Source of the DNA: Yuukianura sp. NJ FZ-2021
Taxonomy: Eukaryota
Assembly (NCBI GenBank): GCA_046563655.1
Contig: CM102288.1
Coordinates: forward strand, 3,038,001-3,102,000
Direction: 5' to 3'
DNA: 64,000 nucleotides
Numbering within the stretch: position 1 is the first letter of the stretch; each line of letters begins with the position of its first letter. The position numbers and the translations under genes are program-made. The notes below the pieces were generated by a model. That model worked only from the letters and a program-made list of their open reading frames with translations, was not told where the DNA came from and ran no database searches. Of this stretch, positions 1 to 49,445 are shown piece after piece.

Positions 1-52
1 GTCACGACCGTAACATTAAAAACATTATGTCTTTCAACTTTTCGTCGCTCAC

Positions 53-3000
53 CGGTCCTATATTGAAGGGCGAATTGCCATCTCTAATAAGCTCAGGCGG
101 AATGGAATCACTAATTCCTGGAACTAAATCCTTGCTTGCACTCGTCTTATAGTTTATGAGGGTATCACGGTCATAAACTATTCTACCCTTCTTGACTGGT
201 TCTCCTGATTCATCACTCTCCATATCTCCTACAAAAAGATATCCATTAATCGTAACATATTTAATTAACATCTGTGTATAAAGTAATAAAATATAACAAG
301 TTTTCACTAACCTTCATGCAATTCACCTTCTTCTATGTCGTCGTCTCCCATTCCTTCGTCAATCTCGTTTCCGCCATTGGTAAAAATAGGTTCAATTTGA
401 GCAGAATCAACGGCCGTAATCTTCAACTCCTCCAGTCCTTTTTCCACTTTGCTAATTTCATCTTCCGTTTTCAGTTCTGAGTTGGTTGGAGGAGGTCGGA
501 TCTCTTCTGTCTTAACGACAGGGACTTCTGGGACAGGCACTGATGGTTCAGTTTCACTGTCAATGGAAATAGGAGAAGGCTCTCCGGACTGCTCACTAAC
601 AACCTCTGGAATCTTTTCTGGAGTACGCTCAATGTATTTCTCAATTGGTTCTGGAGAAATTGAAGCCATTGAAAGATCCTGGAAAAACAAAAAACAAAAC
701 TAAAAACTCTTCCTCCACTTTTCTCAAAAACTGCTTTTTTTTTCAAAATTCTCTTACCAAAAACTGATCTCCTCTCCCACCACTCTGTGGCGTGGATACA
801 ACATTGTCTGTATTGTTCATTTCCTCTTCAGTCGTTATCGATAGGAGTGAAGTTTCTTCGGCCTGTTTACTCACTGCCGCCTCGTGACCAAGGTCAGAGG
901 TGACAATGGGGGGCTGTAGAGGCTCAGTCTCAGCTTCAAGGTCAGGGACGGAGCCCCCTTGGGGTTCACCTCCAATCGGCTGCTGTTCCTTTGGAAGTTG
1001 TGACGGAAGACTCGTCGATGTGTCCAGTTTCTCTGGTTCACCCATGGTGGTGGGTTCTTGGGAAATATTGGTAGGTGGAACTTGGGGGTGGGTGAAGGCA
1101 GGCGGGGCAGAGGCGGCGACAGTCACTGGTGTCTCCAAGGCAACAGTTGCAATAGCGGGAGTTTTTGGATGTAACGGTGCTGGAGGATGTCCAGTCACTG
1201 TGTGGGCGTCAGGGGTGCTATGCGATCGACCTACGAAAAGAACAAAAAACAAACATTAGTATTCATGAAGCTTAGCAAATTCGTAGTTTCGACGTTTCTT
1301 CAAAAACGTTTTCAAAATTCCTAAAATCAGTTCCTCCAGTCGCTCAATTTCAAAAATCCCACACAAGTTATCAATTCTTAACAAAAACACTTTTAACTTT
1401 CCACAAAAAAACTTTACCTTTGCCCCACTTATCTCTAGGCCTTCCCCTAGCATGAGGCATTTCGTTATTCCTCGAAACTCTCAAAATTTTAAAAACTCCA
1501 CTTCACAGTTACTTTTTACACCAAAAACCGCTACTCTAAAACCCAAAACTTTACTTCAAAAAATTTCAAATTCAAAACCGAAAAACTATTTTTTGAGCAA
1601 TCAAAATTCAAAGTGCGACGTCTTCTGAATCATGCTTTCCCTTTTGAATCTTATTTTTAGCCCCCTCTTCCTCTTCTCTATTTTTATCCTTAACCAAATC
1701 CATCCAAGAATTCAAAGCACTCCGTTCAAAATACACCACTGACTAAAAAACTAAAACCGAAAAGATGCAAGTAGTGGGATATTCCCCGAAAAAAAACTTT
1801 TCAAAAAAAGTTCTTACTAACCCTGATTATTCCAAACAGCATAACACTTTTTGAATCATTTCAAAAAACTCTAAAATTTCGTCTCCTCCAGTACTTTTAA
1901 ATATGTCTCACCCCTCTTCTCCTTTCCACTCTTCTGACCCATGATTAGTACTTGTACTTGCAAGCAGGTTTCAAAAAAATTAAAAAGTTATAATAAAAAC
2001 TAACCGGAACCACAAAAACCTCACTTCCTTATACACCACCACTCAATTGTCAAAGTCGATAACTGTAATTAATTAGTACTACGCTTTTCCCATTGACTAA
2101 AAGTTAAAAGTTGCTAAAGTTAAACGTTAGGCCACTTTTTAACAACCTAGTCTTAACTTTCTTTTTAATTAAAAGTAAGAGATTAATGGAAATATTAAGC
2201 ACCGGCAGTTTCTAATCTTCAACTAACTACTGCAATGTGCTTCACTGCTAATCCTCACTTCTCATCCATCAAGTATCCAAGTATCCTCATTGCATATTGG
2301 ATTAAAATGGCATGTGAGATGATCAGACAATGGACATGGACCATCCCAGGCTCTCGTGGGACACAAGATAACCTTATGATCACCACCTTGTACCACCCAT
2401 TCACAGATACGATTTGGACATCCATTGGCACAAGAGTCTCTTACCAATCTGGTCCAACCAAATAAATGTGCAGCTAGATCTCCTCTCTGCCCGTGGCCAT
2501 ATGACTCCTCACATCAAAATCCTATTTCCACATGTACATTGTAACAAAACAGGTCGGGGGAACTTTAAACCAGAAATTGCAGCAGAGCCAAATGCGTTAT
2601 TGCATAATGTGACATTTGGGATGCGGCAAGACGTCGTGGCCAACCAATGAGGGACTTTGAGGGATATGGGAGGCTACAGACTTACTTAAGCTGTGGTCAA
2701 TTCGCGATTAGCAGCAGCCTTTGGCCGGTCATAACTTCCTTATACTCAACATTCCTACTCTTAACGCGTCAAGGACGATTAACTTTCTTATTTACACAAA
2801 AACCGTAACCAAATGCTTCTGCGGAACCATTCTTCTAGTACTTGGTTTTTGTTTTTCAAAAAACCAAAAACAAACTAACCGTTAAAGATTAAACTTATGG
2901 ATTTTGGATTATGACTCATGCAGAAAGCAGAACTGACCGGCAAAATTCTAAAATTAGGAGAAATGTGACTCACTTGAAGTATCATCAGCAGCAGCAGTAA

Positions 3001-4540
3001 TCCGTTGAAAGAAATCTGATTTGGCTTTGTTTTTGCCTTGACCATCAGCTGGAGGAGCCACAGGGGCAACTGACTGTGGTTCATCATGAATCATCGCCGG
3101 TTGACTTTGACCGAAAGCCGGAGGGACTCCATCGTAAGCGTTTTGGTCATCATGTCCACCCTGTCCACCACCATGCATATTTATGTCTTCTGGAAGGCTA
3201 ACCGGCTCTGCTGTTGGTTGAGGAGAGGATGAAGGAGCACGGTCGGAACCAGCATTTGCATCAATCACGGCTTTACCTAAAGTCACAAATTAATTTAAAT
3301 TGTAGATTATTGAAATTATAGAATTATAGATTATAGATTATTGAAATTATAAAGTCATAGTCGGTATAGATTATACATTTCTGAAATTATAAAGTCATAG
3401 ATTGACAATGAACGTTATTAGATCTTCCAGGCGTAGAACTTTTACCTGTGGCGGGGTCAGTTATGAGCAGGATTCTCTTTTTCTTAGGGACGGGAAGTTC
3501 TCGTGGTTGTTCTTGTGCCGGCATGGAAGCATGCGTCACTAACCCTCCAGGGATCACGGCCGGTTGCATCAAAACACTCTGTGCTGGAGCAGGAGTCAAT
3601 TGAGGCTGATGTCCTTGAACTGCCACGGGATGGGCTGCATGTGACTGCTGAGTTGGTTGCTGCTGCACAGGCATTGCCGCTGGAACTCCGGCTCTCATAT
3701 AGGCCACGGCTGGCACTGGTTGTGCATGAGAAGGATGTGGTGGATAAAATGCCGGTTGGCCATGATGCATAGGATTCTGCGGCTGCTGTGATGCATTCTA
3801 ACATTAAAATTAAGTTGTGAATTAAATTAAAATTACAAACAATGGATCAAAAATGAAGGCAATTCAAAATTGCCTTCAAATTATCAAATTCAAAAGTGAA
3901 AGTGAAGTTTTTATAATTACCTGGTAGTAGTTAACTGCACTGGCATAGGCAGCAGCATTATAAGCATTTATCTGTTGCTGGGCCTGCGCATAGAGGTGCT
4001 GTTGCTGTTGAGGAGTAACATATTGTTGGCCTTGTGGATACTGCGGATTGTACGGAGTAGCAGGATAGGCTGCTGGATATCGAATCATTTGCCCTGGTGG
4101 TCCAGCACTTTGAATGATGTACGGCATTTGCTGTGGAAAAATGTAGCCAGAAGCAGCAGCCTGCTGCAAGTTCTGCGCTCGAATGGTCACATTTGTTCCA
4201 GGCTGATGCTGTGCTGCTTGGTTCTGAGTTGGTTGTTGTTGCTGATTTGGTTGATGAGTCGGATGTGGATGTCGTTGATGGTTGCCTGTACTTTGTCCAC
4301 CAGGTTGTCGCGGATAGTTTCCTCCACGGTTTCCACCGCTGCTGTATCTCTGCGGCTGCTGCATTCCGTGGGGTTGATCTCCCTGTAAACAACAATAAAG
4401 CAAAGTAAACGTTTACATATCTCTACAAATCCAGTGACAGATTTAGGTTCTTAGATTTAAGTTAATTATAAATCATAATGAAGCTGAATTACTAAATTTA
4501 CCTCCATTTGGGAGTGCGAGAGATAGTAGTCGCTATTCAT
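53..4540 (-). CDS. eIF4G: Eukaryotic translation initiation factor 4G, N-terminal portion (gene continues beyond the left edge)
   Basis: Spliced ORF from ATG 4540 (MNSDYYLSHSQME). Exons ~4540-4502, 4382-3921, ~3798-3446, 3276-~2969, ~1230-757, 678-312, 228-53, all with GT-AG boundaries. Q/P-rich N-terminus; KKKRILLITDPATG resembles the eIF4G PABP-binding segment; YDRDTLI (155-175) fits the YxxxxL-phi eIF4E-binding motif. Homologous to the MIF4G-containing gene at 10273-14766. Confidence 0.9.
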
Positions 4541-8814: not shown

Positions 8815-10200
8815 AATTTTGTCTTCGGTCAATTGAATTTGCAAATTTTCTTGGTACCCAGTTATTACCACGAGGCTCAATAGTTCAGGAAAAACGAGGC
8901 GTGAGAATTGAAAATTGTAATGGATTGATAACTCACAGTGTTGGTGGATAGTGGATATTAACTTTTTCGGCATTTCATCCACGGCTGGATATGCAGTGGA
9001 AGAAATGGAGGAAATGGATGAATTAGGGGCGGAGCTTTGCCCGCGGGGTTTTAATTAATTAAAATAGAAAAGGCTTAAACAATTCAAAATACCGTACAAA
9101 AACGAAGGAAATATCGTTTTTGTATGGCTTTTAAATGAATAATTAATTTTAACGATAAAAGAAACTCTTTTTGCTTTTATTTTGTAATTTTAAATTTGAA
9201 TTTTTTCTTGGTCTTTCGTCTCATCGATTCCTCGTCCAGGTTTTCAAGCATCTTTCGCTCTGTGTAGAATGATCGGTTTCGTTTGAATTGTGACTGGAGG
9301 TCGATTTCCTCCTGGAGGTTGCGGTGGAATTTGAAATGGACCTCGCATAGGTTCCCAGCCTGGTCCTCCCATAGCTCGCATTCGAGACCGCGGAGGCTGC
9401 AATGACAAAAGAACATTGCCAAAAATTCAATTTCTTCTTCAATTTTTTTCACTTGCCCGTCGTATGTTGTAAGACGAATTGCCATCTCTAATAAGCTCAG
9501 GAGGAATGGAATCAAGAATTCTTTTATCTAACTTGCATGCACTCGTCTTGTAGTTTATGAGTGTGTCACGGTCATAAACTATTCGCTTCTTGACTGGTTC
9601 TGGTTCTCCGGATTCATCACTCTCCATATCTCCTACAAAAAGATATCCATTAATGTAACATATTTAATTAAATAACATACTTATATAATAATAAAATACC
9701 AACTATAAAAAAAGCGGTTTTGCTCACCTTCATCATAGCATTCATCGTCTTCCATATCTTCATAGCCCATTCCGTCGTCAATCTCATTTCCGCCATTGGT
9801 AAAAAAACGTTCAATTTGAGCACATTGAGCAGACAGTTTCATTTTGGCCGTAATCTTCAAGTTCAACTCCTCCAGTTCTTTTTCCACTTTGCTAATTTCA
9901 TCTTCCGTTTTCAGTTCTGAGTTGGTTGGAGGAGGTCGGATCTCTTCTGTCTTCACGAATGGGACTTCTGGGACAGGCACTGATGGTTCAGTTTCACTCT
10001 CATTGGAAATAGGAGAAGGCTCTCCGGACTGGGCACTAACAACCTCTGGAATCTTTTCTGGAGTACGCTCAATGTATTTCTCAATTGGTTCTGGAGAAAT
10101 TGAAGCCATTGAAAGATCCTGGAATCAAAAAATAAAAATAAAATAATAACCTCATTCTCCAATTCAAATTTAAAATTCGAAATTTTCACTCTTACCAAAA
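8815..10200 (-). pseudogene. Partial eIF4G duplicate (third unit): eIF4E-binding exons plus a pre-MIF4G exon with a stop; pseudogene or truncated 4E-binding protein
   Basis: ~10118-9728 and 9632-9457 are close copies of eIF4G exons 678-312 and 228-53 (YDRDTLI retained at 9556-9576). After a putative GC-AG intron (9456-9397) comes PPRSRMR...IILHRAKDA*KPG, with TGA at 9246-9244 in place of the conserved W of the eIF4G AWKP motif. A frameshifted remnant IEPRGNNWVPRK...PKTK lies at ~8815-8885. Confidence 0.8.
8936..9170 (+). mobile_element. Truncated copy of the hAT-type MITE found intact at 45016-45414
   Basis: Begins CAGTGTTGGTGGATA and shares CATTTCATCCACGGCTGGATATnCAGTGGAAGAAATGGAnGAAATGGATGAAT...GGGGCGGAGCTTTGCCCGC with ~45045-45120. 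No right TIR seen; right boundary approximate. Confidence 0.8.
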
Positions 10201-10272
10201 ACAAATCATTATCCAATCTTATCCTTTATTTATCTTATTCTTCTTCTAGTTAATTTTTCATAAGGTTAAGGT

Positions 10273-13200
10273 TTAAATGTTTACTTCAGTTGGAAGACGA
10301 TCGGCTCCTTGAGTCTTTTTATAAAGCCCTTGCACCACTGCTTCTGAAAATCTATGTTTCAGTTTCTCCAGCACTTTTGAAACAAGATTTGTCCAAGTAT
10401 CGCCAAGGTCCTCTTCGATTCCTTCGCCCAACCGGATCAACCAGCCCAAGTCTTCTTCGTCCACAAACACTTCCGTTAAGCACGTTGCCAAGTAGGACGT
10501 TGCCTATAAAAACAAATCAAAATCAAAACTTTCTTCGACACAATTTAGAAATTTTACAAACTGAACTTACGAGTGGAGCATCGATTTCAACATCAGGAAG
10601 TAGCAACAGGATTCCGTCTTTGTCTCTGTCTTTTAGTGACTGGATTACCTGCCACAAAAGTATTTCATTAGATTTTTGAAAAGTTCGAAAAAACTTATTT
10701 TTAGAAAACTTTGAATTACTTGAGCTTTGGTTATTTTGTCAGCTTTAATTAAACATTTAATGAGGCCTCCAGCAGTCTTTTCATCATCTTCCTTGCTCAT
10801 ATCGCAGACTCGTGTGCAGAGCTCATTTACAAAGTCCAGTCGTCGATCTCCTACAAAAACAGAAAAAGAAAAGTTTGAAAAAACACTTTTCCAAAAGATT
10901 TTTTTTTTAAACTCGAAATAGTACCTGGAAATCTCTTCTCTATCCAATCAAAGTCAACTTTCTTGACACTGCGAAACTCTTCAAAGATTTGCTTCACAGC
11001 GTCCTTGGGATCAAAATCTTTGATTTGTTCTGGCGGTTGTTGAGGAGTTGGTGGCGGTGTTTTTCTCGTCGTCATCGTCAATGGTGGAGGTACCCTTGGA
11101 CTTCCAGAATTACTGTCTTTCGTTGGAGTTTGTGGTCTTGAAGACTCCCGACTACTGTGTGATGATGGGCTTTTCGTTTGCGGAAGTGCTTGAACAATCG
11201 CATCACGGGAAGGAGGTGGCAGTGGACCATCAGAAGACTCGCGACCAGCACTGAAACGAGGTGGGAGTGAACTGCGTGGCGGATATCCTGATCCACCTCC
11301 TCTTGCAGATTGCATTCCCCAAGGACCACCGCCAGGAGCCAACTTCGGCAAGTCTCCACTACTGTCAGGCCCAGTCTTCTTGGGAGCAGCGAAGAGAGAG
11401 TACTTTTTCGCTGAAACGCTCATCCATTCGTCAGTTTTCTTTGGAAGTGGGGGTCCACCTATTGGTCCACGAGGAGACGAAGCTGGAGGAAGACTCATCA
11501 ATTGCTTCTTCTCTTCTTGTTCCTCTCGAATTATCGCACGTCGAACTTCCTCTTTTGTCTTTGGCGCAGTTAAATCTCTCCTGGGTACCCAGCTACCGGC
11601 ACGAAGCTCAACCACTTCCTGTAATAATCAAAAATTCATGTTTCGAAGTTAAAAATTTAAAGAAAACGAGTAATTTCCGACTAAACTAACGAGTAAGGCA
11701 AATCTGATTCTGGAAGAATAGGTCCTGTCGTCACTGAGGGCTCTGAGTTTAGTAAACGTATTGTTCATGAAGTTTGGATCTGGCATCCATTTTGATGGTG
11801 GAGTTCTCTTGATCTTCATGGTTTCTATCACTTGAGCAATATTCTCTTCCAGCCTCTGTCCAACAGTTGTCAGGAGCTTGCATAGACACTCCACGCTCTC
11901 CTCGTCGCCACTAGAAATTAACATATTGACACACTCGATCATGATCTTTGGAGTCAACATTTGAAGTTTAAATAGTTCTCCGATAAATCGCACATTCGCT
12001 GTGCTACGCCATTTAGCGAGGAATCTGGAAAAAGAAACGAACAGCATTCAAAAATTTCAGAAGGGGTAGGCGAACGTCGTTCATTGTTTAAATCACCTTT
12101 TCTCTTCAATTTCTAATTTGATAGCTAATTTTTGGTTGTATTGGACTTCTGTTTCCAATTTTTCCTGTAGTATTTCCACTTCCTCTTCGATTGAGCTTTT
12201 TTCCTGAAATTCCTTACGACATTGGTCCGTAATCTTCTTTCGGAAAATCTTGGAATTGGCAACGGGCGCTTTACTATGAACTCTGTGAACCTGAAAACCA
12301 ATTTGGATAAATGAATCAAAAGTGAACTTGCAAACGTAGAGTAACATTTCGCAAAACAACAATTTACAATTTTTGCGTATATAGCCGAGAAGGACGGATC
12401 GTTCATGACTTGTTCAAAAACCACAGAAATTACAGCACCAATTCTTCCAGCCGTTACTTCTTCAGCCTCTGCCCTCTCCGTGTCCGCATCACTTCGATTC
12501 TCAGGTTTCTTGACCTCCTCTTCTAGCATAAGAAACTTTTCCAGCTAAACAAAAAAGTCTAATTGAATTCTGAGTTTAAAACAGAAGAGCACACAAAGAA
12601 AAGAACCATCTTAAAAAACACTCAAAAATGAAAGCTACTTACCAACCTGTCCAAGTTCGCTAGATTCTTCGCTAATTTGTTCAGAATTCGCTGAGCACTC
12701 TTCTTCATCTCCTACTCAGACAAAACAAAAATTTTAAGTGACTCCATACAAAATAACAAAAATAAAGATTTTTAACAACCTCGATGAGAATCTGCTCTTC
12801 TTTTATCGTGTCATAAATATTGATTCCCCTCTTCCAACGATCCTCTGCCTCGTGTAAAGTGTCCGGTCCTCTCTGAATTGTCACAGATCGATTCCCCTCT
12901 TGACGATCAGGTAGAACTTAAAATTATTTATTATAGAATTATAGATTATTATGTGTGTATATCTTGCTCTGGTGTAGAACTTTTACCTGTGGCGGTTGAA
13001 GGTTCATCATCAGCAACAGTAAGCCGTTGAAAGAAGTCTGCTTTGGCTTTGTTTTTGCCTTGACCATCAGCTGGAGGAGCCATTGGGGATGCTGTCCCAG
13101 GGGTAGAACTTTTACCTGTGGCGGTTGAAGGTTCATCAGCAGCAACAGTAATCCGTTGAAAAAAGTCTGCTTTGGCTTTGTTTTTGCCTTGACCATCAGC

Positions 13201-14766
13201 TGGAGGAGCCATTGGGGATCTTGTCCCAGGGGTAGAACTTTTACCTGGGGCGGTTGAAGGTTCATCAGCAGCAACAGTAATCCGTTGAAAAAAGTCTGCT
13301 TTGGCTTTGTTTTTGCCTTGACCATCAGCTGGAGGAGGCATTGGGGATCTTGTCCCAGGGGTAGAACTTTTACCTGGGGCGGTTGAAGGTTCATCAGCAA
13401 TAACAGTAATCCTTTGAAAGAAGTCTGCTTTGGCTTTGTTTTTGCCTTGACCATCAGCTGGAGGAGCCATTGGGGATCTTGTCCCAGGGGTAGAACTTTT
13501 ACCTGTGGCGGTTGAAGGTTCATCAGCAGCAACAGTAATCCTTTGAAAGAAGTTTGATTTGTCTTTGTTTTTGCCTTGATTATCAAGTAGACGAGCCATG
13601 GTGGATCTTATTCCAGGCGTGGAACTTCGACCTGTGGCTGTTGAAGGTTCATCTGGAACAGCAGTAATTCGTTGAAAGACGTCTGATTTGGCTTTGTTTT
13701 TGCCTTGACCATCAGTTGGAGGAGCCACAGGGGCAACTGACTGCGGTTTATCATGAATCATCGCCGGTTGATTTTGACCGAAAGCCGGAGGGACTCCATC
13801 GTAAGCGTTTTGGTCATCATGCCCACCCTGTCCACCACCATGAGCATTTATGTCTTCTGGAAGCTTAACCGGCTCGGCCGTTGGTTGAGGAGAACCTGAA
13901 GGAGCATGCTCGGAACCAGCCAATGGTGTCACGGCTTTACCTACAGTCATAAATTAATTTCAATTACACCTTACTGAAATAATAGAATTATATTTTCTTT
14001 AAAAGTTTTTATTCCCTGAAGAAGGACATAGATCATTGTCCGAAAGCTTGGATCTTTTTGAATAAAGATTTAAAAGTTAAAACATCAACTGGCCATATTC
14101 CGATCTAAAATGCAACTTAATAGAATTATATGTTATTGAAATTATACACAGATTATTATATCTTCTTCAAGCGTAGTACTTTTACCTGTGTAAGGGTCAA
14201 ATATGGTAAGGAGTCTCTTTGTCTTAGGGACGGGAGGTTTAACTGCACTCGCACAGGCAGCAGCATTATAAGCATTTATCTGTTGCTGGGCCTGGGCATA
14301 GAGATGCTGTTGCTGTTGAGGAGTAACATATTGTTGGCCCTGTTGATACTGCAGATTGTACAAAGCAGCAGGATAGGCTGCTGGATATCGAATCATTTGC
14401 CCTGGTGGTCCAGCACTTTGAATGATGTACGGCATTTGCTGTGGAAAAATGTAGCCAGAAGCAGCAGCCTGCTGCAAGTTCTGCGCTCTAATGGTCACAT
14501 TGGTTCCAGGAGGCTGATGCTGTGCTGCTTGGTTCTGAGTTGGTTGTTGTTGCTGAGTTTGTTGATGAGTCGGATGTGGATGGCGCTGATGGTTGCCAGC
14601 ACTTTGTCCACCCGGATGTTGATCTTCCTGTAAGTAATAAAAAATCAATGTCAAGTTTTTAGAAATTCAGTGACACAGAGTTAGATTCTTAGATTTAAGT
14701 TAATTATGAATCATGATCAAGCTAAATTACTAAATTTACCTCCATTTGCTGTTTGCTTTTCGTCAT
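10273..14766 (-). CDS. Divergent eIF4G paralogue: PABP-binding-like motif, 6x43-aa repeat, MIF4G and MA3; no eIF4E-binding exon, no W2 domain
   Basis: Twelve exons join in frame without stops: 14766-14740, 14627-14186, 13940-12987, 12916-12780, 12711-12643, 12544-12368, 12291-~12097, ~12024-11691, 11618-~10926, 10850-~10721, 10648-10571, 10503-10273. MIF4G motifs RILNKL, FSAIYAKI, FRKKITDQCRKEF, NVRFIGELFKLQML, DEESVECLCKLLTTVG, RIRFALLEVVELRAGSWVPRR, then an MA3-like helical domain. Confidence 0.88.
12970..13725 (-). repeat. Coding tandem repeat, six copies of a 129-bp (43-aa) unit
   Basis: GT(A/G)GAAC recurs at 12974, 13103, 13232, 13361, 13490, 13619 (exact 129 spacing). Unit encodes PPADGQGKNKAKADFFQRITVAADEPSTATGKSSTPGTRSPMA. 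Confidence 0.97.
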
Positions 14767-25649: not shown

Positions 25650-26119
25650 GTTCTAGTAAATTTCAATTTGTTCACGCTTTCTTCAATTATTCCAATTGTA
25701 TCTCGGCGGACAAGAATGATTGATTTAATCGATTAAAGCAAAGACGTCGATGACGATGGACTCGCTGTCTGTCGTCTCCTTTGTGTCTATCAGCTGCGCT
25801 GATAAGAAATACCAGTCAGCACCTCTTGCTAGCGTCAGCTGACACAGCTACCCGTTATTCAAGTGAGGCCCGCAGTCAACGGTACTTACTCATTTTACTC
25901 TTTGTGTGGGACTGGATTATTTTTGGGGGTGTCTAAAACTGGGACCCGCACATTAGCGAAATAGGGAATGAAGAGTAAATGTAAACTCTCAGGTGAATGA
26001 GTAACATTTCAGCAAGGCGAACTTCGTTAGATTTCCGTGTCTGGGGAGTTAATATCTGAGACGTTTGGACAAAAAATCATAAAAGGTGAATTCCTGTTGA
26101 ACTGTTAGACATGATTGAA

Positions 26120-26290
26120 TTGCTAAAAATTCAACTGAAGTATAACTTTTGGACGTACTAGATTTGCTAAAAAATAAACTAAAGAACAACTTTTGGACGT
26201 GGTTGATTAGATGAAAATTCAACTGAAATCTAACTTTGAGACGTGGCTGATTTGATGAAAATTCAACTGAAATCCAACTTTTGAACGTAC
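26120..26290. repeat. Degenerate minisatellite, about four copies of a ~43-44 bp unit
   Basis: Recurring AAATTCAACTGAA...AACTTT(T/G)GACGT...GATT units in the PRPSAP-CLCC1 intergenic region. Confidence 0.75.
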
Positions 26291-42414: not shown

Positions 42415-45400
42415 ATGATGCAAATGCCTGGAGGAAGAGCGCTACGGCCAGGTACGTTGAAAAGGTCCTTTTTCATTGATTCATTTGGTGTATAAATTAT
42501 AACATTATCAGTGGAAAGAATGAACAGGATGGATGTTCAAAATTAAGTTCTGGACCATTACTCTTTAGGATTTCAACCCCAACAGCATATGACGGCGTTT
42601 CGTACGAAGAGAGACGTAGATCAACATGTCGAACTCATTTGTAGACAGGACCTGTCTGAGAAAGAAGTAAGTTCAATTAAGCAGACGATAGAGTGAGATA
42701 AGACATGTGGTTCTATGTTGTTAATTGAATCGGATTTTATCTTTACAGAGAAGTCTGAGATACTACAGTATTGCGAGGGCATACGCAAGTGTACGAGAGT
42801 TCCCATTGGCCAAGCGGTTCTTGCAGTCATACATTGAAGCTAATCCCACTTCTCCTGGACTAGCGGATGCCTACAAAGTCATGGGAGATGTATGTTTACC
42901 AAAACGTTTGAATGACTTAAGCAGATTCATTTTATTTAAATGTTATTGAATTCATTAGATCTTGACGGATACGCGGGAACATGAGGCTGCCTTAGAATCT
43001 TACAAAAAGAGTTATGACATTACTCCAACTCGCATAACCCTCAATCGAAGTAAGTTGTAGAAACTAACATCCAGAATGGGCGAGCGTTTGTGTCTTACTT
43101 GCTTTTTTTGTCGTTTTTTAGTCTGTGATCTCTTAGCGAACGGATTTGGTGAAAAGGAAACGCCTGAAGCCAGAAATGCATGGTTTACAAAACAAAAGAC
43201 TGCTTCCAGTCAAGCCGTTACGGAGTCCAGCATGCGCCTAGCTCAACAACGGCCAGAGCCACTTATGGGCTACACTTTTCCTGTGTCTCAAGGATCCTCT
43301 CCAGGCCAGTACTTTCATACAATGTCTCCAACCGTGCCGGTCAACTTCAACGGCCAACAAGATGGTAGCCAGCAACAAAGGACCACCCCTCAACGGCCTG
43401 GCAGTGCAAGAGGTCAAGGTGACATCACTCCGCGTAACCTTCTGAGTCAACTACAGCCGCAGGTCAATGGAACACAAGAGGTAGAGGCCCGCTTGAAACA
43501 GTTGGAGCTTAAGGTTGCTGAACAACATGAAAATGGGATGGAACAGGTCAATCAGCAACTGGAAAAATGTCTAGAAAGGATGAACCAGCAATTTGAAAAA
43601 GTTATGGAAATGGCGCAGCAAGAGAAAGGAAAGATTGGCAGTCAGCAGAAGTTGAATGGTCAAGGCGACAGCGGTACTCATAAGTTGGAACAATCACAGA
43701 AACTTGTTGAAAACAAGTTGCTGGAAATCCAAAAGGAAATGATTCAAAAGTTACAACAAGTTCAAGTTTCAATTGAAACGAAGATTGATTGCGGCTTTTA
43801 TAAGATGAAGAAAGAAATGAATGAAGAATTAGGCCAAGCACAGAAAAATACAGCCTCAGCTATGGAAAGCATGCAGAAGTCTGTTGAAAAAAATCTTCAG
43901 GAGTTCATCAAAGCTGAGCAGGTAACACAGAACATAACTTTTAGTCAACAAGTAATTGAATTTCGATTATCAATTGGTAAAGTTTATGGCGGTTTTGAGT
44001 TAAATGAGTAATGTCGTGTATTTTTATCTAATCTTAGTGTAAGATGTTCAAGGACTACGCTTATCCTCTCCTGGATCAAATCGACGCCAAACAAGCATCA
44101 GCATCCAAGGTCGAACCCAAACCTGCGCCTGTGCCAGTTGCCCAGTCGAAACTTCCAGAACAACCGAAAGCGGCTTTATCCGATTCCAAGCTAAGACTTA
44201 CCGAGCCGAAGCTGAAACTGGAAGAATCAAAGCCGAAACTTGCTGAGCAAACCAAGCAGCCCGAGCCAGTGAAACCTCTAACAGAAAAAGTTGTCAAAGA
44301 GGCTGAAAATCTAAGCAAGATGAAAATTGCTGAAACGAAAGCGACTCCTGCTCCGTCTGTTCCGGCGTTTACTTTCCGATTCAACACTCCTGCTACAACT
44401 GAGGGTGGTTTTCATGCTTTGGCTAAAGCAGCAGAAAGTAATACTGGATTTGGCTTATTCAATCCGAGTAGCAGCACACCCAAGACGTCTGATATTTTCT
44501 CACAACCAATTGGTCCAATCTTTGGAGTGAAAACTCCAACCTCCTTTACTGAAAACAACAAAACTTCTGAAGCTGATCACGACGAGTCTGCTGAAGAATT
44601 TGAGCCTACTGCTGAATTTACTCCGGTGATTCCACTTCCTCCGCTGGTTGAAGTCGTCAAAGGAGATGAAAATGAAAATGTGGTTTACGAAGTGAGAGCC
44701 AAATTGCTTCGACTTCATGAAGATGAAAAAGAAGGGAAGAAGGAGTGGAAGGAAAGAGGACTCGGGAACATCAAGATTCTGCAAGACAAAGATCGACCAA
44801 CCAAAGTACGAGTTGTGATGTGGAGAGAACAAATTCACAAGTTGGCTTGCAATCATCGCATTCTCAAGGACACGAAGATTGAATTTTTCAATAACTCGGA
44901 CAAATCGCTGATGTGGGTGGCAATTGATTTTGCTGATGGAGAGCAATCGGAGGAAATCTTTGTCTGCAAATTTGGAAAGCCGGAACAAGTAAGTAGAATT
45001 TTTAAAAGATTTAACCAGTGTTGCTGGATATCCACTTTTTCGACATTTCATCCACGGCTGGATATCCAGTGGAAGAAATGGACGAAATGGATGAATCCAA
45101 AGGGGCGGAGCTTTGCCCGCAGGGTATGCATAATTTGATATTAAAGGTCGGAAAGAAATCAAAAACAATGCAAAAATAAGCGGAAATCGTGCTAAAATAT
45201 GTTCTAATAGCAAAACCAATTAAGCAAAAGCGGTTTAAATACTTAATTAAAGTATTTACTATTATTTAATTTAAATTTATTTGAAATTGGAGCTGATTTC
45301 CTCAACTCAGCTGATTTCGTCCATCCACCGTCCAGTACGACCCCATTTCATCCACTGGATATCCAGTGGAAGTGGCAATTAAGCCACTGGACGTTTAAGC

Positions 45401-48400
45401 ATCCAGCAACACTGGATTTAACCAAACCAAAACAAGGTTTTTAAGAAATTTTAAGTACAGTTTTAAGTCTTATTCCAACATTGTCTTTATTTTAGTGCAA
45501 AACCTTCAAGGAACACGTCGATCGTCTCGTGGAGCTTATCAACAACTCGCCTGACGAAGAGGCCAGTCCAGTAGCAGCTTCAAAAATTCCAGAACAGCCA
45601 AAACCGAAGGAAGTATCTGTGCCGCTGAAACCGTTGTCTGAACTTTTCAAAAAGCCAGAGGGAACTTGGACTTGCAATGCTTGTTATGTCCAAAACAAGC
45701 CTGATGTACTGAAGTGTGCGAGTTGCGAAACGCTGAAACCAGGAGTTGACCCCAGCAGCATTAAAAACGACGAAGCGATCTCATCCAGCAAAGCTGCTCC
45801 AGCGCCGTTTACATTTGGATTCACTACACCACAAGACGGAGGGTTTCAAAGTTTGGCCAAAAGTGCTGCAGGAGGTGGCTTTACATTCGGTGGCACGGGA
45901 ACCAACATTTTCTCAAAACCTATCACTCCAATGTTTGGCACTCCTGCGTCAACGACATCAGCTGATACTAGCAAAACTGATGCTGATCATGATGAGTCTG
46001 CTGAAGAATTTGAGCCTACTGCGGAATTTACTCCAGTGATTCCACTTCCGCCGCTTGTTGAAGTCGTCAAAGGAGATGAAAATGAAAATGTTGTTTACGA
46101 AGTGAGAGCCAAATTGCTTCGACTGCATGAAGATGAAAAAGAAGGGAAGAAGGAGTGGAAGGAAAGAGGACTTGGGAACATCAAGATTCTGCAAGACAAA
46201 GATCGACCAACCAAAGTCCGAGTTGTGATGTGGAGAGAGCAAATCCACAAGTTGGCCTGCAATCATCGCATTCTCAAGGATACGAAGATAGACTTTTTCA
46301 ATAACTCGGACAAATCGCTAATGTGGGTAGCAATTGATTTTGCTGATGGAGAGCAGTCTGAGGAAATCTTTGTCTGCAAATTTGGAAAGCCAGAACAGGT
46401 AAGTCAAAAGCAGCAATACGAGAGTTTTGAAATCAATTCTTAGTAACTTTCTAAAAACCAAAACGTAAAGCTAAATTGTACACATTTCTTCATTTTAGTG
46501 CAAAACGTTCAAGGACCATATCGATCGTCTCGTGGAGCTAATCAACAACTCGCCAGTCGAGGAAACTACTCCAGTTGCAGCTTCGAAACTTCCAGAATCA
46601 AAATCTGTGGAAGCAACGAAACCAGTGCCAGTTCAGACCCCGTTGTCTGAACTTTTCAAAAAACCTGAAGGAACTTGGACTTGCAATGCTTGTTATGTCC
46701 AAAACAAGCCTGATGAGCTGAAATGTGTAAGTTGCGAAACAGTGAAACCAGGCGTTGATCCCAGCAGCATCAAAAAAGTTGAAGCGATCTCAACGACCAC
46801 AACATCAGCAGCACCATTTGCGCCTCAATTTACCTTTGGATTCAACACACCAACTGATGGCGGCCTAGGTGGTTTTCAAGCGTTAGCTAAGAAAGCAGAA
46901 GGAGGAACTGGATTTACTTTTGGTGCTAGTACTGGATCAAATATTTTTTCGAAACCAATCACTCCGATATTCGGTACTCCGACGACTGCACCAGAAACTA
47001 GTAAAGGAGATGGTGACCATGATGAGTCCGCTGAAGAATTTGTGCCTACTGCTGAATTTACGCCAGTAATTCCACTTCCGCCGCTTGTCGAAGTCGTCAA
47101 AGGAGATGAAAATGAAAATACAGTTTACGAAGTTAGAGCAAAATTGCTTCGACTGCATGAAGATGAAAAAGACGGGAAGAAGGAATGGAAGGAAAGAGGA
47201 CTTGGGAACATCAAGATTCTGCAAGACAAAGATCGACCAACCAAAGTTCGAGTTGTGATGTGGAGAGAGCAAATTCACAAGTTGGCTTGTAATCATCGTA
47301 TTCTCAAGGATACGAAGATAGACTTTTTCAATAATTCGGACAAATCGCTGATGTGGGTGGCAATTGATTTTGCTGATGGAGAGCAATCTGAAGAAATTTT
47401 TGTCTGCAAGTTTGGAAAACCGGAGCAAGTGAGTTGAATTTTTAAAAAATTAACAAAAGAAAAAGTTTTTTCTAAGTAAAATTTTAAGACTTCACTTATT
47501 TGCGAAATTATCTGATTTCAGTGCAAAACGTTCAAAGAACACATTGAGCGCCTGGTGGCTCTAATCAACAACTCACCAGAAGAACCCAGTCCGGTGGCAG
47601 CATCAAAAGTTCCAGAACCAAAACTGGCGGAAGTATCAGAGTTAGTGAAGCCGTTGTCCGAACTATTCAAAAAACCAGAAGGAACATGGACTTGCGACGC
47701 CTGTTATGTCCAAAACAAGCCTGATGTGCTGAAGTGCGCAAGTTGCGAAACGCTGAAACCTGGAGTCGATCCCAGCAGCATCAAAAAGGACGAAGCGATC
47801 TCATCCAGCAAAGCTGCTCCACCGGTACCTCAGTTTTCTTTTGGATTCAATCCTGCCAACGTCGGTGGTTCTCAATCTCAACCGTCATTGGCTCTCGCTC
47901 CAAGTGCTTCTGGTTTCACATTTGGTGGTACTGGCAGTACTGGGGCCAATATTTTCTCAAAACCTGCCCCACCGGTGTTTGGCTTTCCACCAGCAGTGGA
48001 TACTGGCGTTGCTACTAAAAAAGAATCTCCAATCACTTCTCAAGTTCCAGAAAAGGAGGAGTGTTCCACAAGCTGCACTGGATGTATTGGATGTGATCCG
48101 GACAAGTTTGATTTTAGCAAATTGGAAAATCGGAAAGTAGCGGAAGACTATCCTGAACAAAAGATGACACCGGAAGAATTTAGGAAGCATAATGAACAGA
48201 AGAGCAAGGACAAACTGGCAGCATTTTCATTCTCTTTCCCAAATGCTGCTGCTGCTGGAAAAGCACCAGAATCTAAAAGTACTGGAAGTACTACTGTTCC
48301 TACTGCTGCTCCACCAGTACCAGTATTTTCTGGTTTTGGAGGCACCAATTCCTTTGCTGCTCCGACACTTCCTGTGTTCCAAGCGCCCGTGTTTGGAGCT

Positions 48401-49445
48401 GTACCTGCCCCTTCCTTTGCGTTTGGATCTTCTGGCTCATCATTCTCAACTCCACCGACTGCCGCAGCAACATCAACTCCAACTGCCTCTGCTTTACCGC
48501 AGCCTCCAGTACCGGATTTCAGCTCGAAGCCCTTAAGTACCCCACCGAGGACACAGGCCCCTTACAACGTTGAGGATTCTTACAACGAGTATGATGAGTA
48601 CGATGATGATGATCCGGTTTTCGAAGGGGTCGGGAAATTGCGCTATCGTAAACACGGAGAATCTGGTAATTAAAAGTTTAACAAGTTAATTAGTAAGTAT
48701 TTTGAAAACTTACAAGCTTTAAAAATAATTTCGAAATCTTATTTTCAGAAATGCGGGAACTTGGATTGGGATTGGTTTGCTTATCTTATGATTCGGATAT
48801 TTACTGTAATCGGTTCACATATTTAGAAGAAACTGAGGATACTCCGGCAGTTGATCATGTTATTTGTGCTGATACGCAACTGAATGTGAGTCAACTTTTC
48901 TCAAAAAAAAATGATTTTTTTTTTCAAAAACTGATATATTTTTTCAAAAAGTGATATATTTTTTTTTTTCAATTTCTGTGTTTTTTCAATTGAAGGCGTC
49001 GGGTGATAAGGAATTCTATTGGACGGCGTTGATGGAATCCGATTCTGGACATATGGAACGAATGGAACTTGAAGTGACCTTTGACAACAATGAAATCGCT
49101 GCGGATTTCATGGACCGTTGGTCTGATGTAAGTTTGAATTCAAAATTACAAAAACAGTTTTTTCACTTTTCAAAAGTGGGGTTTTTACACTTTTTCAAAA
49201 GTTTTCAAAAGTGGGGTTTTTACACTTTTTCAAAAGTGGGGTTTTCAAACTTTTTTAAAATGTGTTTTTTACACTTTTTTTTTTTCAAAAAAACTTACAG
49301 CGTGAGTGGTTGAAGACGAAGTTTGTTTGTTTTCGTTTTGCACCGGATCTTAAACTTTGAATTTTGGTCTGTTTGTTTTTAGAGTACAGACATGGCATCT
49401 CAGGCAAACATGACTGAAGCTTATTTGGAGGAAGAGGGAGAGTAA
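42415..49445 (+). CDS. Nup358: RanBP2/Nup358-like nucleoporin, shortened: short TPR, coiled coil, three near-identical RanBD1, three RanBP2-type zinc fingers, FG repeats, degenerate C-terminal RanBD
   Basis: N-terminus FRTKRDVDQHV...RSLRYYSIARAY; RanBD FTPVIPLPPLVEVVKGDENE...RAKLLR...WKERGLGNIKIL...MWREQIHKLACNH x3; ZnF WTC(N/D)ACYVQN...C..CET x3; FG/FxFG linkers; CTGCIGC motif; last exon 49383-49445. Confidence 0.88.
45016..45414. mobile_element. Non-autonomous hAT-superfamily MITE (399 bp) in a Nup358-like intron
   Basis: Perfect 14-bp TIRs CAGTGTTGCTGGAT / ATCCAGCAACACTG; perfect 8-bp target-site duplication GATTTAAC (45008-45015 and 45415-45422); subterminal repeats of (C)TGGATATCCA; no transposase ORF. 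Confidence 0.93.
49160..49275. repeat. Intronic short tandem repeat (~25-bp TTTTCAAAAGTGGGGTTTTTACAC-type unit, about four degenerate copies)
   Basis: Repeated TTTTCAAAAGTGGGGTTTT blocks visible in the last intron of the Nup358-like gene. Confidence 0.8.

What the first reader, a model, noticed from the sequence alone, without database searches (positions are those of the whole stretch)
12970..13725. Coding repeat built from an exon end plus an exon/intron junction: a ladder of in-phase 5' splice sites
Seen: each 129-bp unit fuses the 3' end of canonical exon 4 (ADGQGKNKAKSDFFQRIT...CTTCAA, ~2970-3060) to the canonical exon 3/intron 3 junction (CCGCCACAG|GTAAAAGTTCTACGCCTGG, ~3425-3455). Former intron sequence is therefore now coding (GKSSTPG). 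Five units keep CAG|GTAAAAG and the first keeps CAG|GTCGAAG, all in the same phase as the acceptor at 12916. Inference: donor choice could yield in-frame isoforms with one to six repeats, tuning the spacer between the PABP motif and MIF4G at the position where the eIF4E-binding region was lost.
Basis: partly seen in the sequence, partly recalled or inferred. Interest (0 to 1): 0.72.

Follow-up and report, generated by a model that had tools for sequence, protein, structure and literature searches.

The report
Coding repeat in rearranged eIF4G copy
A duplicated translation-factor gene carries six copies of a splice signal, but the one RNA sample available uses only the last, so the repeats become a protein repeat instead of the proposed ladder of isoforms; the copy's cap-factor-binding exons have moved to the gene's end.

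Summary
The sequence observation holds: six 129-bp units, each joining the end of parent exon 4 to the parent exon 3/intron 3 junction, give six in-phase donor-like sites. The proposed isoform ladder is not supported. One public run with spliced contigs joins only the last donor (12987) to the 12916 acceptor. A k-mer simulation predicts exactly the observed 70-letter overhang only if no other donor contributes much; rare isoforms could still be hidden. The likely mechanism is a tandem duplication across a donor in a short-intron genome, where the donor nearest the acceptor wins and the other units become a 43-residue repeat. Human junction-spanning minisatellites (F7, CBS, LMNB2) do the opposite. 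Two corrections: (1) the eIF4E-binding exons are not lost; they sit behind the MA3-like region, are spliced in RNA and keep YX4LΦ, but their link to the upstream exons is not shown. (2) The unit holds a helix-like motif kept in other animal eIF4G proteins, yet the units show no selection signal (pN/pS 1.0). Verdict: a new variant of a known kind, in an expressed, rearranged eIF4G duplicate, probably of a springtail-like animal.

The parts
12974..13727 (-). 129-bp tandem array, six distinguishable units, coding a 43-residue repeat inside copy exon 3
   Evidence: units 1-5 differ pairwise by 3-24 of 129 letters
13626..13634 (-). donor-like site 1, decayed (5 of 9 consensus positions); no use seen
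13110..13505 (-). donor-like sites 2-5 (GT at 13502, 13373, 13244, 13115; 7 of 9 consensus positions, same 9-mer as the used site); no use seen
12917..12986 (-). 70-nt intron from the last donor; spliced in run X3; derived from parent intron 3
   Evidence: joint 12916/12987; alignment and 0 of 500 shuffles reaching the score
12987..13940 (-). copy exon 3 (954 nt): parent exon 4 body followed by the array
14186..14766 (-). copy exons 1-2; exon 2 fuses parent exon 2 to the end of parent exon 3 with the PABP-type motif. The start codon is my choice and untested
12780..12916 (-). copy exon 4: strongly diverged version of the parent's pre-MIF4G exon end (21 of 44 residues identical, dS 1.28)
   Evidence: spliced on both sides in X3
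11691..12711 (-). MIF4G exons of the copy
   Evidence: Pfam PF02854 E 1.2e-20, over cut-off, on one exon; dN/dS 0.30
10285..11618 (-). linker and MA3-like region; the name is given by position and Pfam did not detect it on single exons
10119..10284 (-). chimeric intron: first 89 nt from parent intron 16, the rest from parent intron 5; phase 0 at both ends; splicing not shown
9242..10118 (-). relocated block of parent exons 6-8 with an intact YX4LΦ eIF4E-binding motif, a GC-AG intron and a stop where the parent has a Trp codon
   Evidence: joints 9396/9457 and 9631/9727 in X3, no other letters in the two listed pieces of that contig
2974..3066 (-). source of the exon-derived part of the unit: end of parent exon 4, with the conserved helix-like motif
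3421..3454 (-). source of the junction part of the unit: parent exon 3/intron 3 boundary
1..4540 (-). 5' half of the parent eIF4G gene; it continues left of the window (L005) to a 1584-residue frame

Best explanation
The array is a coding minisatellite made by tandem duplication across a splice donor in a young, rearranged eIF4G duplicate. Inferred history: a second copy of the exon 3 end and intron 3 start was placed right after the exon 4 end. A 129-bp stretch spanning that new donor was then amplified to six units. Shown for one sample: the last donor is spliced to 12916 and the units stay in the RNA. Inferred mechanism: introns here are short, so splice sites pair across the intron and the donor nearest the acceptor wins (70-nt, 23% GC intron against 199-715 nt, 40-45% GC). 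The other five donors are passengers, and the oldest is decaying. The product is one main protein with six 43-residue units between the PABP-type motif and MIF4G. It most likely acts as a flexible linker that happens to repeat a conserved helix motif. Low-level leak from donor 5 is compatible with this reading.
For: Run X3, listed as 'DNA?', shows joints at 11 of the 14 introns I modelled, so I read it as RNA. Joints 12544/12643, 12710/12779 and 12916/12987 share depth 32.8, and the last has a 70-letter side. A k=31 graph of copy plus parent mRNA gives exactly 70 letters with the last donor only, and 3-23 letters if any one other donor is added. The break at 70 comes from a word shared with unit 3 and absent from the parent. 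That side differs from units 1-5 at 3-10 letters. Depth in bin 12819-13019 (21.4) is fully explained by that contig. 30 of 31 modelled introns are under 250 nt, median 79, GC at most 0.39. Short-intron proximity rule: PMC9225289, passages. The copy's exons show dN/dS 0.17-0.30 against the parent in exon 2, MIF4G, linker and MA3-like parts.
Against: One sample, contigs rather than reads; contigs drop rare variants, and 5 of 20 joints were not shown. My simulation has no graph simplification, so an isoform at a minor share could have been removed. Donors 2-5 have the same 9-mer as the used donor, and donor 5 would give a 199-nt intron, still under 250. The 31 introns include paralogous pairs and come from two genes only. 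dN/dS is pairwise and cannot say which lineage was constrained. The history is reconstructed from one assembly.
Confidence: 0.75

Rival explanations
1. One reading: internal donors are used at appreciable or regulated levels and give isoforms with one to six repeats.
For: Donors 2-5 are identical in their 9-mer to donors at parent 3445, copy 14185 and 12986; all isoforms would be in frame. Human 6-16 and CBS minisatellites use up to three donors (PMC1557585, Introduction).
Against: No such joint among the 15 shown; the contig overhang and bin depth fit the last donor alone. Donor 1 has decayed to 5 of 9 positions.
Confidence: 0.12
2. Splicing inside the array: AG|GT of one unit pairs with AG|GT of a later unit (intron gain by tandem duplication), or 45-nt mini-introns are removed from each unit.
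For: Every unit holds AG|GT, and a CAG lies 45 nt after donors 2-5. The mechanism is described in PMC3443670, passages.
Against: These AGs have T fractions of 0.18 and 0.24, against a minimum of 0.41 in 31 modelled acceptors; the shortest modelled intron is 60 nt. No such joint among those shown.
Confidence: 0.04
3. The repeat was kept by selection because it multiplies a binding helix (for example for PABP), giving a multivalent eIF4G.
For: A pattern [DENV]Fxx[RQK][IV] lies 15-135 residues after the PABP-type motif in 18 of 50 distinct eIF4G regions, against 0.7% in shuffles. Units 2-5 keep it and unit 6 has a conservative change. Yeast eIF4G1 binds Pab1 RRM2 through a helix, BOX3 (PMC9537944, passages).
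Against: pN/pS among units is 1.00 for the 84 nt before the donor and 0.86 in the motif (21 and 8 variants). Unit 1 has lost the key Phe. The pattern was written after I had seen some of the hits, and many rows are related flies. The fold of two units is low-confidence (mean pLDDT 52.7). Homology to BOX3 was not tested.
Confidence: 0.2
4. On the side question: the relocated eIF4E-motif block is not joined to the MA3-like exon. The copy then ends after four more residues and cannot bind eIF4E, and the block is a separate transcript.
For: No X3 contig is laid across 10118/10285; the contig that starts the block has 79 letters that lie elsewhere. Read-through gives a stop after 4 residues and a poly(A) hexamer at 10230. 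Two of the three relocated exons have dN/dS near 0.9.
Against: Donor and acceptor are intact and in phase. The block is spliced in X3 and needs an upstream start. Both flanks are identical to the parent for 68 and 85 letters, so an assembler cannot resolve this junction. The motif exon has dN/dS 0.34, p 0.035.
Confidence: 0.25
5. The array is an assembly artefact.
For: No listed contig spans the whole stretch, and runs X1, X3 and X4 may come from the assembled sample.
Against: All units differ from one another, unlike duplicated assembly errors. Unit-6 letters are joined to exon 4 in a spliced contig.
Confidence: 0.02

Closest known systems
Minisatellites whose unit spans an exon-intron boundary: human F7 IVS7 (37 bp), CBS IVS13, 6-16, LMNB2 (100 bp), PDGF (PMC1557585: abstract, Introduction and passages read; the primary papers on the other genes not read)
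   Same: A tandem unit spans a donor and reiterates it as identical pseudo-sites; one site dominates.
   Different: There the most upstream site (sometimes the next one or two) is used and the repeats stay in the intron. Here the most downstream site is used and the repeats become protein.
Intron-centric proximity rule under intron definition (PMC9225289, passages)
   Same: With short introns the donor nearest the acceptor is preferred, as seen here.
   Different: That work is on competing sites in general; here five competitors arose at once from a repeat, four with the same 9-mer.
Intron gain by tandem genomic duplication of AGGT (PMC3443670, passages; PMC4974935, search listing only)
   Same: The duplicated segment carries AG|GT in every unit.
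   Different: No splicing between units was seen; the duplicate is kept as coding sequence.
eIF4G (parent gene in this window; Orchesella eIF4G P0005, P0006 at 51% over the MIF4G exon)
   Same: PABP-type motif, MIF4G, MA3-like region and YX4LΦ motif are all present.
   Different: Six-unit repeat; parent exon 5 and most of exon 3 are missing; the YX4LΦ exons lie after the MA3-like region; the last three parent exons are absent. In 76 of 81 relatives of 900 residues or more the motif precedes MIF4G.
Mextli (PMC4573856, passages)
   Same: MIF4G-type domain first and eIF4E-binding motif at the C-terminus, if the relocated block is joined.
   Different: No KH domain; the copy derives from the neighbouring eIF4G at 79-94% DNA identity. 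A look-alike layout, not a member.
Yeast eIF4G1 BOX3 helix that binds Pab1 RRM2 (PMC9537944 and PMC3169606, passages)
   Same: A short helix-like conserved element in the disordered N-terminal region near the PABP site.
   Different: Sequence homology and binding are untested here; the resemblance is a lead only.

Membership tests
Junction-spanning minisatellites (F7 IVS7 type) | Unit spans an exon-intron boundary | tested here: met
Junction-spanning minisatellites (F7 IVS7 type) | Donor reiterated in identical form | tested here: met
   5 of 6 sites share the 9-mer
Junction-spanning minisatellites (F7 IVS7 type) | Upstream donor used, repeats intronic | tested here: not met
   last donor joined in X3
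Junction-spanning minisatellites (F7 IVS7 type) | Repeat number varies between individuals | not testable with these tools
   one sample of the organism, contigs only
   rare use cannot be excluded from contigs
Intron gain by tandem genomic duplication | Duplicated segment holds AGGT | tested here: met
Intron gain by tandem genomic duplication | Duplicate is spliced out between two AGGT sites | tested here: not met
   no such joint among 15 of 20 shown; T-poor acceptors
eIF4G | MIF4G domain | tested here: met
   PF02854 over cut-off
eIF4G | YX4LΦ eIF4E-binding motif | tested here: met
   intact at copy residues about 1300-1306; weak eIF_4EBP match E 0.07
eIF4G | That motif on the same chain as MIF4G | tested here: inconclusive
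   junction 10118/10285 not shown
eIF4G | Motif placed before MIF4G | tested here: not met
eIF4G | PABP-type motif in the N-terminal region | tested here: met
   profile from relatives scores the copy at E 1.6e-4, the parent at 2.3e-8; 7 of 19 residues differ from the parent
Mextli | KH domain after the MIF4G-like domain | tested here: not met
   no KH match in 11 of 15 copy exons scanned; the region aligns to the parent eIF4G throughout
Mextli | C-terminal eIF4E-binding motif | tested here: inconclusive
   depends on the unshown junction
BOX3-like PABP-binding helix | Helix formation | tested here: inconclusive
   helices predicted over the motif at mean pLDDT 52.7
BOX3-like PABP-binding helix | Binding to PABP RRM2 | not testable with these tools
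BOX3-like PABP-binding helix | Sequence homology to yeast BOX3 | not tested
   no yeast sequence was in hand

The most novel reading that the evidence does not exclude
A working, naturally re-ordered eIF4G: PABP motif, six copies of a conserved binding helix, MIF4G, MA3-like region, then the eIF4E-binding motif at the C-terminus. It would have reached a Mextli-like layout independently and bind PABP multivalently. Its repeat exists only because short-intron splicing ignores five good upstream donors. The re-ordered chain alone I put at about 0.7; the added binding role brings the whole to about 0.2.
Probability: 0.2. Interest if true: 0.72.

Novelty: new variant of a known kind. Interest (0 to 1): 0.45.

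Why it matters
It is a natural test of how a spliceosome chooses among identical donors. The outcome is the reverse of the human F7-type cases and fits the short-intron proximity rule. The same mutation, a tandem duplication across a donor, would then lengthen an intron in long-intron genomes but create a protein repeat with new sequence in short-intron genomes. The host gene adds a second testable point: whether eIF4G still works with its eIF4E-binding motif moved behind MIF4G. The repeat also points to a conserved, apparently undescribed motif in the animal eIF4G N-terminal region.

Tried and rejected
Run search: no RNA holder listed by record; I laid 4 of the 5 runs (X2 left out) and X3 proved to have spliced contigs. 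Run X5 (organism B) has no cover over 13020-13622; that is no evidence on whether it has the array. Contig depths rise from the 5' to the 3' end of the copy, which would fit one transcript, but contig depth cannot rank parts of a gene, so I did not use it. No X3 cover over the intron 10119-10284; also not used. Homologue search with the repeat exon: 0 hits among 7999 candidates, weak evidence. Atlas: no usable hit. Pfam on the repeat exon: 3 matches under cut-off, taken as chance. A profile of 11 relatives' N-terminal regions did not find the helix motif because its spacing varies. Selection on the units: none detected. Complex prediction of one unit with this genome's PABP RRM2 (locus L021) was not available, so binding stays open. 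A third gene copy: not found in the assembly (2 candidates scored each). The translations printed were off by one base and were not used. Parent exon 18 was mis-set and corrected; its intron was left out of the 31 counted. Earlier scan findings: none. Paper searches for the same arrangement: 0 papers; nothing on point in the listings.
Full report
Setting. The window is G000:C6:3038001-3102000 of a 98.7-Mb assembly in 22 contigs. It holds two eIF4G genes on the minus strand. The parent starts near 4540 and runs out of the window; with locus L005 it gives a 1584-residue frame in 19 exons. The copy lies at 14766-9242. The nearest named relatives are Orchesella eIF4G proteins at 51% over the MIF4G exon, so a springtail-like animal is my inference.

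Observation. The array is real: period 129, 5.8 copies, 92% matches. Six donor-like sites lie 129 apart; five share the 9-mer of the parent's exon 3 donor and the first has decayed. Each unit joins about 93 nt of the parent exon 4 end to about 36 nt of the exon 3/intron 3 junction. The 70-nt intron after the last site is itself a copy of parent intron 3: 0 of 500 shuffles reach its score. The ladder and its phase follow from the duplication and are not independent signs of function. An open frame into the intron is common: 9 of 18 parent introns read open for 27 nt or more.

Which donor is used. No run was listed as RNA. I laid 4 of the 5 listed runs. X3 shows joints at 11 of my 14 modelled introns, so I read it as RNA; some of those joints come from parent-like contigs. 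The only joint shown to the 12916 acceptor starts at 12987, the last donor, with depth 32.8 and a 70-letter side; 15 of 20 joints were shown. I simulated the k=31 graph of copy and parent mRNA. With the last donor alone the unbranched path reaches exactly 70 letters into unit 6; adding any one other donor cuts it to 3-23 letters. The break at 70 is caused by a word shared with unit 3 and not found in the parent, which fits the inner units being in the RNA. The depth of bin 12819-13019 is fully explained by that one contig, 21.4 predicted and observed. So in this sample the last donor dominates. Limits: one sample, contigs that drop rare variants, and a simulation without graph simplification.

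Why the last donor. Of 31 modelled introns in the two genes, 30 are under 250 nt (median 79) and none exceeds 39% GC. The last donor gives 70 nt at 23% GC; the others would give 199-715 nt at 40-45% GC. Under short-intron recognition the donor nearest the acceptor is preferred (PMC9225289, passages). Human minisatellites that span a junction do the opposite: F7, LMNB2 and PDGF use only the upstream site, and CBS and 6-16 use two more (PMC1557585, abstract and Introduction). Splicing between units, the intron-gain route of PMC3443670 (passages), is unlikely: the inner AGs have T fractions of 0.18-0.24 against at least 0.41 at modelled acceptors. That intron definition is the cause here is inference.

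The host gene. The copy's order is parent exons 1-2, the end of exon 3, exon 4, the array, a diverged pre-MIF4G exon, exons 9-16, and then parent exons 6-8. The last block carries the YX4LΦ eIF4E-binding motif intact (motif as defined in PMC4573856, passages). So the region was moved, not lost. The block is spliced in X3, including a GC-AG intron of copy-specific length, with no other letters in the two listed pieces. Joined, the copy is a 1391-residue frame. The link between the MA3-like exon and the block is not shown: no X3 contig is laid across it. Its flanks are identical to the parent for 68 and 85 letters, which an assembler cannot resolve. Read-through would stop after four residues. 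I put the joined form at about 0.7. Against the parent, dN/dS is 0.26 in exon 2, 0.30 in MIF4G, 0.29 in the linker, 0.17 in the MA3-like part and 0.34 in the motif exon. It is 0.92 and 0.88 in the two other relocated exons, and 0.64 (p 0.2) for the block as a whole. In 76 of 81 relatives of 900 residues or more the motif comes before MIF4G; 3 also have a pattern match after it. MA3 is a label by position; Pfam did not detect it on single exons.

What the unit codes. The exon-derived half holds a motif also seen in P0001, Orchesella P0005, cockroach, termite, bug and some fly proteins. A six-letter pattern occurs after the PABP-type motif in 18 of 50 distinct regions, against 0.7% of shuffles. 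I wrote the pattern after seeing some hits, the 50 include the parent and the copy, and many rows are related. Yeast eIF4G1 uses a helix, BOX3, to bind Pab1 (PMC9537944 and PMC3169606, passages); that this motif is its counterpart is a recalled resemblance, untested. Against a selected role, variants among units give pN/pS 1.00 (21 variants) and 0.86 in the motif (8 variants), and unit 1 has lost the key Phe. The fold of two units shows helices over the motif at low confidence.

Novelty and verdict. Donor-repeating minisatellites are known; the downstream-wins, coding outcome is a variant I did not find in print. A re-ordered eIF4G duplicate was not found either. The library lacks most subscription papers, and I read no supplements. 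What remains is a clear natural case of donor choice and an expressed, rearranged eIF4G copy. Interest 0.45.

Noticed in passing
window 12780-12916 and 9205-9396: The copy holds two versions of the parent's pre-MIF4G exon end: one strongly diverged (dS 1.28) in the normal place and one about 90% identical at the 3' end. Neighbouring exons have dS 0.05-0.41. The diverged one may come from an older duplicate or have evolved fast.
   Followed up: partly
window 12121-12290: Runs X1 and X3 carry a version of copy exon 7 that departs strongly from the assembly (joint 12121/12205; 18 other letters at 12273/12369 in X3), and X1 also has the assembled version. A divergent allele or an unassembled copy.
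   Followed up: partly
window 13920 (loose end in X3): A spliced exon 3/exon 4 junction unlike both assembled genes; no third copy was found in the assembly.
   Followed up: partly
window 13960 and 12921 (run X5): A contig of organism B joins sequence like the 70-nt intron directly to sequence like the end of the intron before copy exon 3, as expected if both come from one parent intron 3.
   Followed up: partly
window 8952-9206 and 45025-45176: A small high-copy element begins where the relocated block's likeness to the parent ends; a second copy lies at 45025. It may bear on how the block moved.
   Followed up: no
window 9397-9456: GC-AG intron where the parent has GT-AG; it is spliced in X3.
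   Followed up: yes
window 43061-48670 (+): Long exons with about 1-kb tandem modules and Cys-rich motifs that recall RanBP2/Nup358; the name is recalled and untested.
   Followed up: no
L022 (G000:C8, around 15010700-15011500): Another MIF4G gene, about 34% identical to the parent; no eIF4E or PABP pattern in frame within 10 kb. Possibly a DAP5/NAT1-type gene (recalled label).
   Followed up: partly
window 26116-26290: 44-bp repeat, 4 copies, 76% matches.
   Followed up: no
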